Shown here piece by piece: positions 5,893 to 37,115 of a stretch of 39,034 bases of DNA. The position numbers were made by a program, and so were the translations under genes. The notes beneath the pieces were generated by a model, which saw only the letters and a program-made list of their open reading frames with translations, was not told the origin of the DNA and made no database searches. Position 1 is the first letter of the stretch. Each line of letters begins with the position of its first letter. This stretch comes from a virus: the UHGV virus genome UHGV-0388326. One strand, written 5' to 3'.

Positions 5893-6185
5893 CAGATTAC
5901 GAAGATGATCAACTGAAAGAAGAAAACGCCCGTAAGCAACGTGACATGGCACAGCGTGAAATTGATGACATTCGCTTTGTCATGAGCAGTGAACAGGGGC
6001 GTCGCGTTGTCTGGTCGGTGCTGGAGAAAGGCCGTGTGTTTTCCGCTATCTCACCGATGGACGCTATGGCAATGGCATTTAATGAGGGGCAACGCAATCT
6101 GGCGCTGGAACTGTTTCAGCGCGTTATGGCGCATTGCCCTGAACAGTATTTGAAGATGGCCAAAGAGGCCAGTGAACAGGAGTGA
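5889..6185 (+). CDS. hypothetical head-module protein
   Basis: 98 aa ORF translationally coupled between portal and scaffold. Confidence 0.5.
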   Translation: MTDYEDDQLKEENARKQRDMAQREIDDIRFVMSSEQGRRVVWSVLEKGRVFSAISPMDAMAMAFNEGQRNLALELFQRVMAHCPEQYLKMAKEASEQE

Positions 6186-6187
6186 TC

Positions 6188-6883
6188 ATGAATTTATTTG
6201 AGCGTTTGCTGTATCGCCGTCTTTGCAATGAGCAACCAGTCGATGGTGGAGCAGCTCCGGCTGCGTCAGAACCGTCAGCGCCTGCAGGTGATAACCCTGC
6301 TCCAGTTGGTGATCCATCACAATCGGAAGGTGATAAGCCACAACCTGTTGCTGATGGCGATAAACCTGCTGATGACAAAAAGCCTGAAAACGATAAGCAG
6401 GATGAAAAAAAGGACGGCGATAAACCAGAGGGTGCGCCTGAGAAGTACGAGTTTCAGGCTGCCGAAGGCGTAGAGCTGGATACAGAAGCGTTGAAGGAAT
6501 TCGAGCCGGTGGCGCGAGAACTTAACCTGACCAACGAGCAAGCGCAAAAGCTGGTTGATGCTTATCCGAAGATTCTGGCAGGTGTGCAGCAGCGCCAGGC
6601 AGAAGCCTGGCAGAAAACAACCGAGCAGTGGGCTGCTGATGTAAAAGCTGACAAAGAAATCGGTGGCGACAAGTTGATTTCTAACCTTAGCGCCGCACAG
6701 CGTGCGCTTGACCAGTTCGGGACACCTGAACTCAAAGAATATCTGAACACCACCGGGCTGGGTAATCACCCTGATCTGGTCAAAACGTTCGTGAAAATCG
6801 GAAAGGCGATGTCTGAAGATGGCATGGTCACCGGTGGTAATGAAGGCCAGCGTAGTGCGGCCGAAGTGCTCTATGGCAAATAA
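6188..6883 (+). CDS. scaffolding protein (tentative)
   Basis: Acidic, Pro/Asp/Lys-rich N-terminal half, helical C-terminal half, directly upstream of major capsid gene; GGAG RBS before ATG 6188. Confidence 0.6.
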   Translation: MNLFERLLYRRLCNEQPVDGGAAPAASEPSAPAGDNPAPVGDPSQSEGDKPQPVADGDKPADDKKPENDKQDEKKDGDKPEGAPEKYEFQAAEGVELDTEALKEFEPVARELNLTNEQAQKLVDAYPKILAGVQQRQAEAWQKTTEQWAADVKADKEIGGDKLISNLSAAQRALDQFGTPELKEYLNTTGLGNHPDLVKTFVKIGKAMSEDGMVTGGNEGQRSAAEVLYGK

Positions 6884-6891
6884 GAGAGGAA

Positions 6892-7884
6892 ATGACAATG
6901 GCTGTTAAAGGCTTAACTGCGCTAACGCTGGCTGACTGGGGTAAGCGCGTCGATCCAAACGGGAAAGTCGATAAGATTATCGAGCTTCTCGGTCAAACTA
7001 ACCCGATCCTTCAGGATATGCCTTTTGTCGAAGGGAACCTTCCTACCGGACACCGAACCACCATTCGTTCTGGTTTACCTTCAGCTACCTGGCGTTTGCT
7101 GAACTATGGTGTACAGCCAAGCAAATCAACCACAGTGCAGGTCACCGATTCCGTTGGCATGCTGGAAACCTATGCTGAAGTCGATAAGTCACTGGCTGAT
7201 CTGAACGGCAATACCGCCGAGTTCCGCCTGTCTGAAGACCGCGCATTTATTGAAGCGATGAATCAGCAGATGGCGCAGACACTGTTTTATGGTGATTCCA
7301 GCGTTAACCCTCAGCAGTTTATGGGACTGTCCTCCCGCTATTCCAGCCTGTCTGCGGGTAATGCTCAGAACATCATTGATGCTGGTGGCACGGGTACAGA
7401 TAACACCTCAATCTGGTTAGTGGTGTGGGGCGAAAACACCGTGCATGGCATCTTCCCGAAAGGGCAGAAGGCTGGCATCCAGATGGAAGATAAAGGCCAG
7501 GTGACACTGGAAGATGCGAATGGCGGCAAGTACGAAGGCTACCGTACCCATTACAAATGGGACAACGGACTTGCTCTGCGTGACTGGCGTTATGTTGTTC
7601 GCATTGCAAACATCGATGTCAGCAATCTTTCAGAACCTTCCTCTGCCGCAAATATTGCGAAGTTGATGGTTAAAGCACTGCATCGCATTCCAAACCGTGG
7701 CATGGGCCGCCCGGTGTTCTACATGAACCGCACTGTAGGCCAGGCTCTTGATCTACAGTCTCTGGAGAAAACATCTCTGGCTATCAGCGTAAAAGAGACT
7801 GAAGGCGAGTGGTGGACTTCATTCCGTGGTGTACCAATTCGTGAAACTGATGCGCTTCTGGAAACAGAAGCCCGCGTGGTGTAA
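6892..7884 (+). CDS. major capsid protein
   Basis: 330 aa after scaffold; position and size consistent with HK97-fold capsid of epsilon15-like phages; alternative start ATG 6898. Confidence 0.75.
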   Translation: MTMAVKGLTALTLADWGKRVDPNGKVDKIIELLGQTNPILQDMPFVEGNLPTGHRTTIRSGLPSATWRLLNYGVQPSKSTTVQVTDSVGMLETYAEVDKSLADLNGNTAEFRLSEDRAFIEAMNQQMAQTLFYGDSSVNPQQFMGLSSRYSSLSAGNAQNIIDAGGTGTDNTSIWLVVWGENTVHGIFPKGQKAGIQMEDKGQVTLEDANGGKYEGYRTHYKWDNGLALRDWRYVVRIANIDVSNLSEPSSAANIAKLMVKALHRIPNRGMGRPVFYMNRTVGQALDLQSLEKTSLAISVKETEGEWWTSFRGVPIRETDALLETEARVV

Positions 7885-34625: not shown

Positions 34626-34647
34626 TATCCAGCCACAACCCTCTGTA

Positions 34648-34672
34648 GACCGCCATCCGGCGGTCTTTTCAT
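34648..34672 (+). terminator. tR1-like terminator after cro-like gene
   Basis: GACCGCC-ATCC-GGCGGTC followed by TTTTC. Confidence 0.6.
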
Positions 34673-34680
34673 ATCTATTC

Positions 34681-34695
34681 GTACCTCAAAGGTAA
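34681..34695. promoter_or_regulatory. TTACC-N5-GGTAA-like site
   Basis: GTACCTCAAAGGTAA (one mismatch). Confidence 0.4.
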
Positions 34696-34775
34696 TAAAA
34701 AACCAAATATGGTTGATCTTTTTTTTGTGTCAGCACAAAATAACCGTAATCCCAATACTAATAACAGGGCTTACC

Positions 34776-34976
34776 ATGGAAATCATTACACGTATTGATG
34801 CCGCAAAGCGCGGACTTAAACGCTACTACACCGGAAAAACATGTAAGCACGGACATGACAGTGAACGCTGGGTTTACAACGGACACTGTGTTGAGTGCAC
34901 CATGGAATCAAACCGTCGTATCAGGGCAGAGATTAAGCAGATCATGATTAATTCCTCCCCACAACATTCAAGCTGA
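34776..34976 (+). CDS. small Cys-rich (zinc-binding?) protein
   Basis: 66 aa; CKHGH...CVEC; ATG 34776 chosen over track start 34713. Confidence 0.45.
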   Translation: MEIITRIDAAKRGLKRYYTGKTCKHGHDSERWVYNGHCVECTMESNRRIRAEIKQIMINSSPQHSS

Positions 34977-34991
34977 TAGCGGAGATTAATC

Positions 34992-35807
34992 ATGAGCAGA
35001 CATGCAACAGATTGGGCCTGGGAGACAGATCCAGGTAGCTCGTCATTAAAGCTCATACTGCTCTCGATGGCTGACAGAGCCGATGAATATAACCTCTGCT
35101 ACCCCAGCATAGAACGCCTCGTTAAAGACACTTGCCTGAATAAAAAAACCGTGCAGGCCGGACTTATATCGCTCATGAAAATGGGGCTTATTTCAGATAC
35201 CGGGGAGAGAAAGGGAGCGACAAAAAGAGTGCGGGTTTTCTCTCTTAATATAACCAAAAACGGGAACATTAAAGGCAACCGAGAGGGGGGCAATGAACCC
35301 GAAAACGGTAATGTTACCGAAAACGGGAATATACCCAAAAACGGGATGTTGAATGATCCCAAAAACGGGATGTTGAATGATCCCAAAAACGGGATCCAGA
35401 ACCAGTCATATAACCAGTCATTTAACCAAGAGAGGGAGAGCAGGACAAAAAACGGGGATTCTGTGCATCATGACCCCGGCGCAAACAACGCCGTGATGAA
35501 TAACTTTGTTCCTCCTGGTGGGTCAGGGCAATTAGGCAAATTTGTCATGCATGAACAATGGCAGCCATCAGATGACTTTCTTCGGAAAAGCTCATTGCAG
35601 GGGATCTACCTGGACAGTCTGCCAACGGCACAGGAACTTGCAGAGTTCAGAATTTACTGGATGGCTGAGGGTAAGGCATACCATCAGGCACAGTGGGAGC
35701 AGAAGCTGGCAAGGCGGCTGCAGATTAGCAGACAGAAGCAATCAACATTACCTGATAACAACGTTCCGCACTGGAACAGCCCTGAAGCATGGGAGGATTT
35801 CTTGTGA
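34992..35807 (+). CDS. replication initiator (lambda O-like role) with internal iterons
   Basis: N-terminal winged-helix-like region LKLILLSMADRADEYNLCYPSIERLVKDT; internal repeat array; followed by P-like gene. Confidence 0.6.
   Translation: MSRHATDWAWETDPGSSSLKLILLSMADRADEYNLCYPSIERLVKDTCLNKKTVQAGLISLMKMGLISDTGERKGATKRVRVFSLNITKNGNIKGNREGGNEPENGNVTENGNIPKNGMLNDPKNGMLNDPKNGIQNQSYNQSFNQERESRTKNGDSVHHDPGANNAVMNNFVPPGGSGQLGKFVMHEQWQPSDDFLRKSSLQGIYLDSLPTAQELAEFRIYWMAEGKAYHQAQWEQKLARRLQISRQKQSTLPDNNVPHWNSPEAWEDFL
35256..35393 (+). repeat. iteron array (putative ori) inside replication initiator gene
   Basis: About six copies of AAAACGG(G/T)A at roughly 20-bp spacing, including perfect tandem CCCAAAAACGGGATGTTGAATGAT x2. 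Confidence 0.6.
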
Positions 35808-36589
35808 ACAACGTTTTTACCGCGATACAAAACCGTGACGGAGAAGCCCTTTCTCGCATGTCAGGTTATGAGCATCAGTACGTCAACAATGACAATGTGG
35901 TGAACATGTCAGCAGAGAGGCTTGTTGATACCCTTTTTAAACAGCTGAAACAACTGTTTCCGGCGGCAGTGGTAACCAACCTGAAGACGCCAGAGCAGGA
36001 AGTTGCTGCAAAACAGCAGTGGATTGCTGCGTTTGCCGAAGGGGGGATCCGAACCCGTGAACAGGTTTCTGCTGGTATGCGCCACGCCCGCGCCAGTGAG
36101 TCTCCGTTCTGGCCGTCTCCAGGGCAATTTATCAAGTGGTGCAAAGACAGCAAGATGGTTCTTGGCGTCACCATTGACGATGTGATGGCGGAGTTTCACC
36201 GGTACAGCAAGGAAAAAAGTTTATATCCTGGTGGTCCCGAAAGATTCCCGTGGCGACATCCGGTTATGTACTGGGTTGTATGTGATACCCGCCGTGCAAT
36301 GTATCAGCGCCAGCTTAGCGAGATTGAGGTTGAGAAACACGCGCGCAGGCTGCTCGATGATTGGGCGAAAAAGGTGGCTTCCGGACAGCAGATACCCGAT
36401 CCGGTGATCAGCATACAGGCAAAGCCAGAACCCATGAGTACGCCTCCGGACACAGGGAGAGACGTTTACCACCCGCCAGGGCGAAGTTTCGGGTGCATGC
36501 CTAACGCCGCCACCCTGGGGGGAATAACACCGGCGCAGTGGCTGATGGAGGAATACAGGCGGGGAAAGGCGGCAGGATTTATCAAGTAA
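35789..36589 (+). CDS. replication protein P-like (helicase loader)
   Basis: segment EVAAKQQWIAAFAEGGIRTREQVSAGMRHARASESPFWPSPGQFIKWCKD closely parallels lambda P as recalled (RRQWVLAFRENGITTMEQVNAGMRVARRQNRPFLPSPGQFVAWCRE). Confidence 0.75.
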   Translation: MGGFLVNNVFTAIQNRDGEALSRMSGYEHQYVNNDNVVNMSAERLVDTLFKQLKQLFPAAVVTNLKTPEQEVAAKQQWIAAFAEGGIRTREQVSAGMRHARASESPFWPSPGQFIKWCKDSKMVLGVTIDDVMAEFHRYSKEKSLYPGGPERFPWRHPVMYWVVCDTRRAMYQRQLSEIEVEKHARRLLDDWAKKVASGQQIPDPVISIQAKPEPMSTPPDTGRDVYHPPGRSFGCMPNAATLGGITPAQWLMEEYRRGKAAGFIK

Positions 36590-36626
36590 TACCAGCGCGA
36601 TAGCGCATTTTTTTACGTCTCGATGA

Positions 36627-36703
36627 TTACCTGCTGGGTAATAAAATATTCTAAAATCTATTGATTTCGTGTCTTATGTGGTTTTTAATTACCTAAGAGG
36701 TAA
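36627..36703. promoter_or_regulatory. two TTACC-N5-GGTAA sites upstream of DUF1064 gene
   Basis: 36627-36641 TTACCTGCTGGGTAA; 36689-36703 TTACCTAAGAGGTAA overlapping the RBS, ATG at 36707. Confidence 0.5.
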
Positions 36704-36706
36704 ATC

Positions 36707-37054
36707 ATGAGAAAACAGATACAGGCTCTTGGTCGACTCAAAACAGGCCAGATGAACAAAACAGAATCTGCGTATTGCCAGCACCTTGAGCAGCGTAAAC
36801 GTGCAGGGGAAATCGCCTGGTATCGATTCGAGGGTATCAAGCTGCGGTTAGCTAATAACACGTTCTATACGCCCGATTTCGCTGTGATGCTCGCCACCGG
36901 CGAGATGGAGCTGCACGAAGTGAAAGGGGGATTCTGGACCGATGACGCCAGAGTGAAAACCAAAGTCGCCGCAGATCAGTATCCGTTCCGAATCATCGGG
37001 GTAACGGTTAAGCCAAAGAAAGCAGGTGGTGGCTGGAACATCGAAGAGTTCTGA
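36707..37054 (+). CDS. DUF1064-like protein (PD-(D/E)XK fold nuclease-like)
   Basis: 115 aa; YTPDF...ELHEVKG pattern as in DUF1064 family. Confidence 0.5.
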   Translation: MRKQIQALGRLKTGQMNKTESAYCQHLEQRKRAGEIAWYRFEGIKLRLANNTFYTPDFAVMLATGEMELHEVKGGFWTDDARVKTKVAADQYPFRIIGVTVKPKKAGGGWNIEEF

Positions 37055-37115
37055 ATCGACGATCTTTTTAGTTATCAATGTAATCAATAAGTTATGTGGA
37101 TAAGCGAGGGTAAAG

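What the first reader, a model, noticed from the sequence alone, without database searches (positions are those of the whole stretch)
35256..35393. Iteron array inside the replication initiator gene (putative origin)
About six AAAACGG(G/T)A repeats at roughly 20-bp spacing, with one 23-bp unit perfectly duplicated, lie within the O-like gene and encode a repetitive Asn/Gly/Pro-rich linker (PKNGMLNDPKNGMLND). This mirrors lambda ori inside the O gene. The repetitive unit could also vary in copy number between relatives.
Basis: partly seen in the sequence, partly recalled or inferred. Interest (0 to 1): 0.4.

Follow-up and report, generated by a model that had tools for sequence, protein, structure and literature searches.

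The report
Phage replication origin inside initiator gene
The repeats are real and are most likely the replication origin of a phiV10-like temperate E. coli phage, lying inside the gene of the protein that binds them, as in phage lambda; this is a well-supported but fairly ordinary finding.

Summary
Six exact AAAACGG(G/T)A cores lie at 35257-35394, with spacings of 45, 18, 18, 24 and 24 bp, against 0.57 expected in the whole window. They sit inside gene 34992-35807.

The window is a phiV10-like Uetakevirus. The gene is not a Pfam lambda-O homologue. It has an HTH_36 winged-helix N-terminus and a DnaT-like C-terminus, and a lambda-P-like loader gene follows it.

Comparative evidence shows that the DNA is selected, not the peptide:
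- In 80 prophages from different species that share the N-terminal domain, CCNRAAAACGG occurs 92 times in the gene, 5 times elsewhere on that strand and once on the other strand.
- It always lies just after the HTH domain, and it occurs in all three reading frames.
- The last repeat is a dyad whose arms covary.
- Three 12/13-nt AAYC boxes follow it, often in different frames, in sequence richer in A+T than the gene.
- The repeats travel with the N-terminal domain, not with the C-terminus or the loader. Phage GF-2 joins this module to a lambda-O C-terminus at the point where ori-lambda ends.

Copy number ranges from 4 to about 11 in close relatives.

Verdict: a lambda-style iteron origin, a new member of a known kind, and untested experimentally.

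The parts
34992..35807 (+). Replication initiator gene (271 aa): N-terminal HTH_36 winged helix, repeat-encoded linker, DnaT-like C-terminal domain
   Evidence: ORF. Pfam HTH_36 aa 18-67 (E 1.8e-10) and DnaT aa 184-252 (E 1.1e-15). PHROG 1032 'replication initiation protein' E 4.6e-108. 99.8% identical to the gene of phage phiv142-3 and 97.6% to that of phiV10.
34992..35249 (+). Coding region of the N-terminal winged-helix DNA-binding domain (aa 1-86), the presumed iteron reader
   Evidence: AlphaFold2 model of aa 1-95 has pLDDT 84, with helices 3-11, 17-28, 40-47, 51-63 and a beta wing 67-72/81-85. Foldseek against PDB finds only generic winged-helix regulators (MarR/Fur/PerR type, TM 0.5-0.6).
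35236..35275 (.). Modestly AT-rich patch around iteron 1 (70-73% A+T); one of two candidate unwinding sites
   Evidence: 30-nt stability profile: among the 4-5% least stable 30-mers of the window.
35253..35266 (+). Iteron 1 (ACCAAAAACGGGAA), 45 bp upstream of the next; weak dyad
   Evidence: Present in most close relatives.
35298..35311 (+). Iteron 2 (CCCGAAAACGGTAA), 18-bp unit
   Evidence: This unit type is gained or lost in relatives (L006, L007).
35316..35329 (+). Iteron 3 (ACCGAAAACGGGAA), 18-bp unit
35334..35347 (+). Iteron 4 (CCCAAAAACGGGAT), first 24-bp unit
35355..35372 (+). Iteron 5 as a dyad, GATCCC-AAAAAC-GGGATG (5 of 6 arm pairs); 24-bp unit
35379..35396 (+). Iteron 6, the terminal one, a perfect dyad GATCCC-AAAAAC-GGGATC
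   Evidence: The terminal-iteron dyad is conserved and its arms covary across 42 unique family members.
35397..35432 (+). Three 12-nt AAYC boxes (CAGAACCAGTCA TATAACCAGTCA TTTAACCAAGAG). This is a second conserved DNA element, positionally equivalent to lambda's AT-rich region and the candidate unwinding element
   Evidence: TRF 12-bp x2.4. The box follows the last iteron in 71 of 85 loci. Box spacing is 12+13 or 13+12 nt in most loci, so copies change reading frame. The stretch is 63-67% A+T here. In the family, the 48 nt after the last iteron are more AT-rich than the gene in 54 of 55 unique loci.
35445..35458 (+). Degenerate seventh motif copy (ACAAAAAACGGGGA); polymorphic and probably not functional
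   Evidence: Absent as an exact core in most of the 78 close relatives scored (all layouts without a final 63- or 75-bp interval) and in L004, L006 and L007.
35529..35786 (+). Coding region of the DnaT-like C-terminal domain (aa 180-265); presumed ssDNA contact and/or loader contact
   Evidence: phmmer against PDB: DnaT C-terminal domain chains 6AEP, 9ZBT, 4OU6, 4OU7 and 2RU8, E 1e-18 to 7.5e-21. This domain co-varies with the P-like gene in phage Tyrion.
35804..36589 (+). Lambda-P-like helicase loader gene (GTG start overlapping the initiator stop, as annotated in relatives; an alternative ATG lies at 35789)
   Evidence: Pfam Phage_lambda_P E 1e-56. PHROG 109 'P-like helicase loader' E 1.3e-92. 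Annotations of relatives.

Best explanation
The array is the iteron part of the phage's origin of replication, embedded in the gene of its own initiator.

Proposed course of events:
1. After infection or induction, rightward early transcription produces the 271-aa initiator and the P-like loader.
2. Initiator dimers use the N-terminal winged helix to bind the six dyad repeats (35253-35396). These have an A-tract centre and sit on average two helical turns apart, so binding would build a bent nucleoprotein complex like the lambda O-some.
3. The duplex opens next to the array. The most likely place is the three conserved 12-nt AAYC boxes at 35397-35432. The AT-rich patch at 35236-35275 is the alternative.
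4. The DnaT-like C-terminal domain holds single-stranded DNA and/or docks the P-like protein, which delivers host DnaB.

What is shown: the repeats exist, the domains and gene order are as stated, selection acts on the DNA, the repeats are linked to the N-terminal domain, and the layout is positionally equivalent to ori-lambda.

What is inferred: binding, bending, the site of opening, the roles of the C-terminal domain and the loader, and origin activity itself.
For: 1. Non-random array: 6 exact cores in 138 bp against 0.57 expected in 39 kb.

2. Context: the array lies between an HTH_36 domain and a DnaT-like domain of a 'replication initiation protein', followed by a Phage_lambda_P gene.

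3. DNA, not peptide, is conserved:
- In 80 prophage loci from different species that share the N-terminal domain, CCNRAAAACGG occurs 92 times in 68.7 kb of initiator genes. It occurs 5 times in 328.7 kb of flanks on the same strand and once on the opposite strand.
- All sites lie at gene nt 261-649.
- They are read in frames 0/1/2 63/23/6 times, as PKNG, xQKR(D/N) or PKT(E/D). Eighteen loci use at least two frames. Phages GF-2, PPompW and Vibrio H20 show the same.

4. Dyad with covarying arms, as expected for sites bound by a dimer: the CC/GG pairs are invariant, and the three outer pairs are 71-79% complementary with 3 pair types each. There are 195 complementary cells against 161.6 +/- 4.6 in shuffles, maximum 177 of 2000.

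5. Rare codons build the dyad: CCC is 5.8% of Pro codons elsewhere in the window but 4 of 4 in the array. GGG is 18.8% elsewhere but fills 5 of the 6 iteron Gly positions.

6. Modularity:
- Phage Tyrion has an 86%-identical P-like protein and a 49%-identical initiator C-terminus, but an unrelated N-terminus and unrelated repeats.
- Phage GF-2 has this N-terminus, these iterons and the AAYC boxes fused to a lambda-O C-terminus. That C-terminus is 62% identical to O aa 156-299 (E 2e-67), and the junction falls exactly where lambda's AT-rich region ends.

7. Layout matches ori-lambda: lambda's iterons TCCCTCAAAACGAGGGA lie at O-gene nt 349-433, spaced 20/24/23 bp, right after the Phage_rep_O domain (PMC7466680).

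8. A second conserved DNA element follows the last iteron in 71 of 85 loci. Its copies are 12+13 nt apart, so their frame changes, and the region is AT-enriched in 54 of 55 unique loci.

9. An 8.46-kb circular E. coli plasmid record carries only this type of initiator, with 3 exact motifs in the gene, plus a P-like gene as replication functions.

10. Domesticated chromosomal homologues with the same protein architecture (DopC/DopE) are reported to lack iterons (PMC5509034).
Against: - No experiment on this phage group was found in the searchable literature.
- The window has no lambda-grade AT-rich tract. The best candidates are 63-73% A+T, only in the top 4-8% of least stable 30-mers.
- Among 42 collinear close alleles, third-codon-position variability in the iteron cores (3/24) is not clearly lower than in the rest of the gene (18/85 and 19/127).
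- GC skew is uninformative, because its minimum coincides with the switch in transcription direction.
- Units 4-6 are recent duplicates, so the codon statistics are not independent.
- The plasmid record may be an assembly artefact.
- Covariation counts are inflated by relatedness.
Confidence: 0.8

Rival explanations
1. The repeats are binding sites for the initiator (or another early protein) that serve control rather than initiation. They would act in autoregulation, as a transcriptional roadblock, or in copy-number control by handcuffing. The true origin would lie elsewhere, for example in the intergenic regions at 34630-34780 or 36590-36710.
For: All the evidence for DNA-level selection and for linkage to the N-terminal domain fits any initiator-binding site. 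Iterons in plasmids are known to do both jobs (established knowledge; PMC4980987). The window lacks a strong AT-rich tract next to the array. A perfect DnaA box lies 1.7 kb away at 37095-37103.
Against: In GF-2 the module replaces ori-lambda exactly, iterons plus AT-rich region, in front of a lambda-O C-terminus. A conserved, AT-enriched second element always follows the last repeat. No comparable repeat cluster exists elsewhere in the window. DnaA boxes are not enriched.
Confidence: 0.1
2. The array is a slippage-prone, low-complexity coding repeat. It merely provides a flexible Asn/Gly/Pro-rich linker between two protein domains, and the DNA has no function of its own.
For: The repeats are in frame. 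They encode a plausible flexible linker: residues 90-95, where it begins, are the only low-confidence (pLDDT <50) segment of the aa 1-95 model. Whole 18- and 24-bp units are gained and lost freely among close relatives, giving 4 to about 11 copies. Variability at synonymous sites is not clearly reduced.
Against: The same 11-nt DNA word is used in three reading frames, giving three different peptides, often within one gene. It is strand- and position-specific (92 against 5 against 1). It is built from the rarest Pro codon. It forms a dyad with covarying arms. The adjacent AAYC boxes are spaced 12+13 nt and so shift frame.
Confidence: 0.04
3. The dyads act as RNA or single-stranded-DNA hairpins, for example mRNA structures that pace translation between domains, or priming signals, rather than as duplex binding sites.
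For: RNA folding of 35240-35440 gives -56.3 kcal/mol against -40.1 +/- 3.6 for shuffles, z = -4.57. The arm covariation is also what base pairing would produce.
Against: Any array of dyads folds well, so the z-score does not discriminate. There is no Rfam match. Mismatched arm positions are not preferentially G-T wobble. Several relatives have perfect 16-bp palindromes such as GTCCCAACGTTGGGAC, which is typical of sites bound by a dimer. The repeats are tied to a winged-helix domain of the MarR/Fur-like class, which binds palindromes as a dimer.
Confidence: 0.03

Closest known systems
ori-lambda with the O and P genes of phage lambda, and the 6-iteron origins of Stx phages 933W and P27
   Same: Both have direct repeats with dyad symmetry and an A-tract centre: lambda TCCCTCAAAACGAGGGA, here (G)ATCCC-AAAAAC-GGGAT(C). 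In both they are spaced about two helical turns apart, lie inside the initiator gene immediately after its DNA-binding domain, and are followed by a second origin element and then by a P-type loader gene. Iteron number differs between relatives and changes the protein length in both cases (PMC7466680).
   Different: The initiator does not hit Pfam Phage_rep_O and has no BLASTP similarity to O. Its C-terminus is DnaT-like rather than O-like. There are 6 repeats in 18- and 24-bp units. In place of a roughly 40-bp, very AT-rich tract there are three 12-nt AAYC boxes of only 63-67% A+T.
DopC/DopE of Alteromonadales and Oceanospirillales (Brezellec et al. 2017, PMC5509034)
   Same: The two-gene architecture is identical: an HTH_36 N-terminus plus a DnaT C-terminal motif, followed by a Phage_lambda_P-family protein. 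The authors link the N-terminus to that of lambda O by HHpred.
   Different: DopC/DopE are chromosomal, domesticated genes, and the authors report no iteron-like sequences within the dopC locus. The gene here is in a phage and carries a full array.
E. coli primosomal protein DnaT
   Same: The C-terminal 85 residues match the DnaT C-terminal DNA-binding domain (PDB 4OU6, 4OU7, 6AEP, 2RU8, 9ZBT; E about 1e-20).
   Different: Only that domain is shared. The N-terminal half is a winged helix plus repeat linker. This protein is a phage initiator, not a replication-restart factor, so database names such as 'primosomal protein I' are misleading.
Iteron plasmids (RK2 TrfA, pPS10 RepA, F RepE, R6K pi) and their origins
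   Same: Winged-helix initiators bind phased direct repeats next to an unwinding element made of repeated 13-mers (established knowledge; review PMC4980987). The 12/13-nt AAYC boxes resemble such 13-mers in position and period.
   Different: No plasmid Rep Pfam family is matched. The origin is inside the initiator gene. The repeats are dyads, which suggests dimer rather than monomer binding. The loader is P-like.
Edwardsiella phage GF-2 'replication initiation O-like' gene with its P gene
   Same: It has the same N-terminal domain (56% identity), the same kind of iterons (GATCCCAAAATTGGGA, 24-bp period, plus one copy in another frame) and the same CAGAATCAGTCA box.
   Different: Its C-terminus is a true lambda-O C-terminus (62% identical to lambda O aa 156-299), which makes it a natural hybrid between the two module types.

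Membership tests
Lambda-type origin (iterons inside the initiator gene) | Four or more direct repeats of about 18-20 bp with internal dyad symmetry, spaced about two helical turns apart | tested here: met
   Six repeats with spacings 18, 18, 24, 24 (mean 21 bp) plus one at 45 bp. Arm match is up to 6/6, in GATCCC-AAAAAC-GGGATC. Lambda for comparison: 4 repeats spaced 20/24/23 bp.
Lambda-type origin (iterons inside the initiator gene) | The repeats lie within the initiator ORF, directly after its DNA-binding domain | tested here: met
   The array covers gene nt 262-405, and the winged helix ends at about aa 86. In lambda the array covers gene nt 349-433, and the Phage_rep_O domain ends at aa 115.
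Lambda-type origin (iterons inside the initiator gene) | An adjacent AT-rich DNA-unwinding region | tested here: inconclusive
   In the window there are only 63-67% A+T at 35398-35433 and 70-73% at 35236-35275. Across the family, the 48 nt after the last iteron average 66% A+T against 55% for the gene, and are higher in 54 of 55 loci.
Lambda-type origin (iterons inside the initiator gene) | The initiator gene is followed by a helicase-loader gene | tested here: met
   Phage_lambda_P E 1e-56; its start overlaps the initiator stop.
Lambda-type origin (iterons inside the initiator gene) | The repeats specify replication together with the cognate N-terminal domain (module specificity) | tested here: met
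   This was tested by comparison only. The repeats follow the N-terminal domain and not the C-terminus or the loader (Tyrion; GF-2; 80 loci).
Lambda-type origin (iterons inside the initiator gene) | The initiator binds the repeats, and the fragment supports autonomous replication | not testable with these tools
   This needs EMSA or footprinting and a mini-replicon assay. The only hint is the 8.46-kb circular plasmid record of a relative that has no other rep gene.
Lambda O protein family (Pfam PF04492 Phage_rep_O) | An N-terminal Phage_rep_O domain | tested here: not met
   There is no hit at E <= 0.01, whereas lambda O hits at 5.7e-36. BLASTP between the two proteins finds nothing significant. 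The only remote links are PHROG families named 'O-like' and the HHpred link reported in PMC5509034.
Primosomal protein DnaT | Full-length similarity to DnaT, including its N-terminal domain | tested here: not met
   Only aa 180-265 align, to residues 85-170 of the 179-residue DnaT chain 9ZBT_D. The N-terminal half is HTH_36.
Plasmid iteron Rep proteins (Rep_3 / RepA WH1-WH2 type) | A Rep-family domain with two winged helices | tested here: not met
   There is no Rep Pfam hit. The model shows a single winged helix, and Foldseek finds only generic MarR/Fur-type folds.
DopC/DopE-type pair (HTH_36-DnaT_C plus P-like) | The domain architecture of both proteins | tested here: met
   HTH_36 + DnaT, then Phage_lambda_P. 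The architecture is as described in PMC5509034.
DopC/DopE-type pair (HTH_36-DnaT_C plus P-like) | A chromosomal, domesticated gene without iterons | tested here: not met
   The gene lies in a 39-kb phage genome and carries six iterons.

The most novel reading that the evidence does not exclude
HTH_36-type phage initiators across Gamma-, Beta-, Alpha- and Deltaproteobacteria may share one conserved two-part intragenic origin: CCC-N6-GGG dyad iterons followed by three AAYC boxes at 12/13-nt spacing. The iterons would be evolutionarily related to lambda's (ATCCC..AAAAC..GGGAT against TCCCTC-AAAAC-GAGGGA). The AAYC boxes would be a sequence-specific unwinding or single-strand-binding element, analogous to oriC 13-mers or DnaA-trios, that has not yet been described for phage origins.
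Probability: 0.3. Interest if true: 0.55.

Novelty: new member of a known kind. Interest (0 to 1): 0.35.

Why it matters
**Annotation.** It places the replication origin of the phiV10/epsilon15-like (Uetakevirus) phages. Related prophages sit in about 8% of complete E. coli genomes (424 of 5426). It also gives a simple sequence rule for finding the origins of a large, widely distributed family of prophages: CCC-N6-GGG repeats right after an HTH_36 domain, then AAYC boxes. These genes are currently mislabelled 'primosomal protein' or 'DnaT'.

**Practical use.**
- It predicts which fragment should make a lambda-dv-like mini-replicon.
- It predicts replication-incompatibility groups among prophages.
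- It explains length polymorphism and frameshift-prone alleles of the gene.

**Concept.** It is a clean natural example of DNA-level constraint overriding the reading frame. It also extends the lambdoid rule that the N-terminus and iterons form one exchangeable module and the C-terminus and loader form another, now to a different initiator family.

Tried and rejected
- **GC skew**. The cumulative minimum at about 33-35 kb coincides with the divergent transcription switch, so it says nothing about the origin.
- **DnaA boxes**. There are only 2 in the window (4.2 expected) and none near the array, so no case can be made for DnaA involvement.
- **Rfam**. No RNA family is matched. The RNA folding z-score of -4.57 is an automatic consequence of the dyads and was not used as evidence.
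- **Synonymous-site variability among close relatives.** The first attempt was invalid, because equal-length alleles had different unit layouts. The corrected test on 42 collinear alleles is underpowered: cores 3/24 against 18/85 and 19/127. It does show that no site varies in gene nt 344-426.
- **Protein search with the 90-aa N-terminus**. It returned only short fragments. The full-length search returned only near-identical E. coli proteins, so it added copy-number range but no diversity. Diversity came from the genome-contig scan instead.
- **Foldseek of the N-terminal model**. It gave only generic winged-helix matches (best E 5e-3), so there is no specific structural relative.
- **Promoter/terminator scan**. 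Counts are at the chance level. The two 'terminators' at 35342-35385 on the minus strand are just iteron dyads followed by the complement of the A-tract.
- **Literature searches**. No paper was found that describes this origin. The original phiV10 and epsilon15 genome papers are not in the searchable library, so prior mention there cannot be excluded.
- **Pac, cos or recombination site.** This was considered and dropped. Nothing supports it: the terminase genes are elsewhere, and the repeats are tied to the initiator domain.
Full report
**What is in the sequence**

The region 35253-35396 holds six copies of a 14-nt word, CC(C/G)(A/G)AAAACGG(G/T)(A/G)A.
- The exact core AAAACGGKA occurs 7 times in the 39,034-bp window, 6 of them here. 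Dinucleotide-preserving shuffles give a mean of 0.57 and a maximum of 3.
- The longer pattern finds the same six sites plus a weaker seventh at 35445-35458.
- Start-to-start spacings are 45, 18, 18, 24 and 24 bp.
- Tandem Repeats Finder reports an 18-bp unit x2.8, a 24-bp unit x2.6 with 100% matches (35334-35395), and a 12-bp unit x2.4 directly after it at 35400-35428.
- Each unit is a small dyad. The last is perfect: GATCCC-AAAAAC-GGGATC at 35379-35396.
- All copies point the same way and lie in ORF 34992-35807, where they encode ...TKNGN...PENGNVTENGNIPKNGMLNDPKNGMLNDPKNGIQNQS....

**What the locus is**

The gene is 99.8% identical to that of Escherichia phage phiv142-3 and 97.6% identical to that of phiV10, both in genus Uetakevirus. 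Related prophages occur in 424 of 5426 complete E. coli genomes.

The protein has three parts:
- An N-terminal Pfam HTH_36 domain (aa 18-67). An AlphaFold2 model of aa 1-95 (pLDDT 84) shows a winged helix with a beta-hairpin wing. Foldseek finds only generic dimeric winged-helix regulators.
- The repeat-encoded linker.
- A C-terminal domain homologous to the DNA-binding C-terminal domain of primosomal protein DnaT (Pfam E 1.1e-15; PDB 4OU6, 6AEP and 9ZBT at E about 1e-20).

The protein does not match Pfam Phage_rep_O and shows no BLASTP similarity to lambda O. The next gene (35804-36589) overlaps the stop codon and belongs to the Phage_lambda_P family (E 1e-56). Upstream lie a divergently transcribed repressor-like gene and two small early genes, the same arrangement as in phiV10 and epsilon15.

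**Is the DNA or the peptide under selection?**

This is the key question, because in-frame duplication of a linker would also make such repeats. Distant relatives answer it.

*Phages that share only the N-terminal domain.* Edwardsiella GF-2, Vibrio H20, Acinetobacter AP22 and E. coli PPompW are 46-56% identical to the window's protein in that domain. All carry the same DNA word, repeated with a 24-bp period, right after the domain. GF-2, PPompW and H20 each have an extra copy in a different reading frame (ACC CAA AAA CGG GAT and GAC CCA AAA ACG GAA).

*Eighty prophage loci, one per species, from Gamma-, Beta-, Alpha- and Deltaproteobacteria.*
- CCNRAAAACGG occurs 92 times in 68.7 kb of initiator genes, 5 times in 328.7 kb of same-strand flanks and once on the opposite strand.
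- All sites lie at gene nt 261-649.
- Frames 0, 1 and 2 are used 63, 23 and 6 times, giving PKNG/PENG, xQKR(D/N) or PKT(E/D).
- Eighteen loci use at least two frames within one ORF.

A peptide repeat cannot do this. A protein-binding DNA word can.

*Within the window.* The array is built from the phage's rarest Pro codon: CCC is 5.8% of Pro codons elsewhere but 4 of 4 in the array. GGG is 18.8% of Gly codons elsewhere but fills 5 of the 6 iteron Gly positions. The caveat is that units 4-6 are recent copies.

**Dyad symmetry**

I aligned the terminal repeat of 42 unique family members, using the conserved box that follows it as the anchor.
- The inner CC/GG pairs are invariant.
- The three outer arm positions are 71-79% complementary, with three different Watson-Crick pair types each.
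- Examples are GATCCC..GGGATC, GTACCG..CGGTAC, ACACCC..GGGTGT and ACCCCC..GGGGGT. There are also perfect 16-bp palindromes such as GTCCCAACGTTGGGAC.
- Complementary cells number 195 of 294, against 161.6 +/- 4.6 in column shuffles (maximum 177 of 2000). Relatedness inflates this figure.

Symmetric sites with an A-tract centre, spaced on average 21 bp apart, are what lambda O dimers bind and bend (PMC7466680).

**A second element**

In 71 of 85 loci the last repeat is followed at once by C(A/G)GAAYC(A/T)NYCA and two more AAYC boxes. In the window these are CAGAACCAGTCA TATAACCAGTCA TTTAACCAAGAG at 35397-35432.
- In most loci the three boxes are spaced 12+13 or 13+12 nt, so successive copies lie in different frames. 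This too is a DNA-level feature.
- The variable bases are more alike between boxes of one locus than between loci: 3.67 against 3.10 +/- 0.10 of 5.
- The 48 nt after the last repeat are more AT-rich than the gene in 54 of 55 unique loci (66% against 55%).

In the window itself the enrichment is weak. The box region is 63-67% A+T, and a second patch around repeat 1 (35236-35275) is 70-73% A+T.

**Modularity and positional equivalence with ori-lambda**

*Enterobacter phage Tyrion (same genus).* Its P-like protein is 86% identical. Its initiator C-terminus is 49% identical, with the same tail VPHWNSPEAWEDFL. Its N-terminus is unrelated and its linker holds unrelated repeats, GGATCAGGGA x2.

*Phage SPN1S.* It also has a different N-terminus, and its repeats are GTCCGC/GCGGAC clusters.

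*Phage GF-2.* It has the window's N-terminal domain, iterons and AAYC boxes joined to a genuine lambda-O C-terminus. That C-terminus is 62% identical to O aa 156-299 (E 2e-67). In lambda, the iterons occupy O-gene nt 349-433 and the AT-rich tract runs to about nt 474, which is aa 158. The GF-2 junction therefore falls exactly at the end of ori-lambda.

So the block 'HTH_36 domain + CCC-N6-GGG repeats + AAYC boxes' substitutes for the block 'O N-terminal domain + iterons + AT-rich region'. This is the classic lambdoid rule that the N-terminus and iterons form one module and the C-terminus and loader form another.

The iterons themselves look alike: lambda ATCCCTC-AAAAC-GAGGGAT against the window's GATCCC-AAAAAC-GGGATC.

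**Copy-number variation**

Close relatives differ by whole 18- or 24-bp units.
- Genes of 792 to 864 bp occur in complete genomes and phages, with 5-8 cores.
- Among 78 IMG/VR relatives the window's layout is the commonest, and copy numbers run from 4 to 9.
- One 311-aa protein has eight PKNGMLND units, which means about 11 repeats.

The lambda and Stx phages offer a parallel: 4 against 6 iterons, which adds 13 residues to O (PMC7466680).

**Most likely mechanism**

- *Shown:* the anatomy, the domains, the gene order, the DNA-level constraint, and the module linkage.
- *Inferred:* initiator dimers bind the six dyads through the winged helix and bend the DNA into an O-some-like complex. The neighbouring AAYC boxes (or, less likely, the AT patch at 35236-35275) open. 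The DnaT-like domain contacts single-stranded DNA and/or the P-like protein, which brings host DnaB. Theta replication then follows.

Two side observations fit this picture.
- An 8,461-bp circular E. coli plasmid record (NZ_CP148379.1) consists of a dicA/cro/YdaT control region, a PPompW-type HTH_36-DnaT initiator with three exact CCCAAAAACGG words in the gene, a P-like gene, and cargo. It has no other replication gene, which makes it a natural analogue of lambda dv, if the record is sound.
- The domesticated chromosomal pair DopC/DopE has the same protein architecture but is reported to have no iterons (PMC5509034).

**Rivals**

- *Binding sites used only for control, with the origin elsewhere (0.1).* This cannot be excluded without an assay, but it is disfavoured by the GF-2 substitution and by the conserved AT-enriched element.
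- *A pure peptide linker (0.04).* This is contradicted by the frame data.
- *RNA or ssDNA hairpins (0.03).* These are not needed: there is no Rfam hit, and the folding z-score of -4.57 is inherent to any array of dyads.

**Weak points**

- There is no experimental evidence.
- The window has no strong AT tract.
- Synonymous variability in close relatives is not discriminating.
- GC skew is uninformative.
- DnaA boxes are absent nearby.

**Comparison and novelty**

The kind of element is classical: an iteron origin inside its initiator gene, followed by a loader gene. It is known from lambda, P22-type and Stx phages. From my own knowledge, and not tested here, it is also known from SPP1 and several lactococcal phages.

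This initiator is not a member of the Pfam lambda-O family. It is not DnaT, although databases name it 'primosomal protein'. It is not a plasmid Rep.

I found no paper describing the origin of phiV10/epsilon15-like phages or the family-wide iteron/AAYC grammar. The original genome papers are not in the searchable library, so prior mention cannot be ruled out.

I classify it as a new member of a known kind, of moderate-to-low interest (0.35).

The most novel reading still open has a probability of about 0.3. It holds that one conserved two-part origin grammar is shared by HTH_36 initiators across Proteobacteria and is related to lambda's, and that the 12/13-nt boxes are a sequence-specific unwinding or single-strand-binding element.

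Noticed in passing
window 35397-35432; also L011, L098, L101, L103, L121, L134 and others: Three AAYC boxes follow the last iteron in 71 of 85 family loci. They are spaced 12+13 or 13+12 nt, so successive copies change reading frame, and in Acinetobacter an A-run follows them (GAATCTAAAAATAAAAA). Their variable bases are more alike within a locus than between loci.
   Followed up: partly
window 35355, 35379, 35393: Three GATC (Dam) sites lie within 42 bp, created by the iteron arms GATCCC/GGGATC. The window average is one per 269 bp. Clustered GATC sites at origins can matter (SeqA), but here they may be a by-product.
   Followed up: no
L176 = NZ_CP148379.1 (8,461-bp circular E. coli plasmid record), initiator at 6048-7088 (-): The record looks like a natural lambda-dv-like mini-replicon. 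It has dicA-like, cro-like and YdaT genes, an HTH_36-DnaT initiator with three exact CCCAAAAACGG words on the coding strand, a P-like gene, an AAA/HNH pair, DUF5677, hokD and rem. It has no other replication gene. It could be an assembly artefact.
   Followed up: partly
L178 = NZ_CP079771.1 (and NZ_CP079768.1), 41,027-bp circular 'plasmids': Whole phiV10-like phage genomes, with integrase, lysis and terminase genes, are deposited as circular plasmids of duck E. coli isolates.
   Followed up: partly
proteins P0001-P0004 (97-158 aa), relatives of window 34992-35807: Many database alleles of the initiator are truncated inside the array. For example, P0002 ends ...ENGIYPKTGC, which is an iteron read in another frame. 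The A5 runs in each iteron may be hot spots for frameshifts or sequencing errors.
   Followed up: no
L002 = phage BP9 (PP488543.1) 132-138 kb; PH444 (PP350014.1) about 91-92 kb: A 138-kb Vequintavirus record and a 115-kb phage record each contain a phiV10-like immunity/replication block. These are probably chimeric assemblies or contaminating prophage DNA.
   Followed up: no
window 37095-37103 (-): A perfect DnaA box, TTATCCACA, lies in the intergenic space after the DUF1064 gene, 1.7 kb right of the array. DnaA boxes are not enriched in the window (2 against 4.2 expected).
   Followed up: no
window about 24000-27000: A low-GC block (0.34-0.37 against about 0.50 elsewhere) is likely horizontally acquired cargo.
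   Followed up: no
L013 (Salmonella phage SPN1S) 1583-1634 and 1862-1902; L014 (phage Tyrion) 1928-1951: Initiators of the same genus with other N-terminal domains carry other repeat sets. SPN1S has GTCCGC/GCGGAC clusters at two places in its gene and has no P-like gene next to it. Tyrion has GGATCAGGGA x2. These are candidate iterons of other specificity groups.
   Followed up: partly
window 35335-35417 (gene nt 344-426): Among 42 collinear alleles of close relatives, no position varies across this 83-nt stretch (iterons 4-6 and the first AAYC boxes). About 9% of positions vary elsewhere in the gene. This could reflect constraint or repeat homogenisation.
   Followed up: partly
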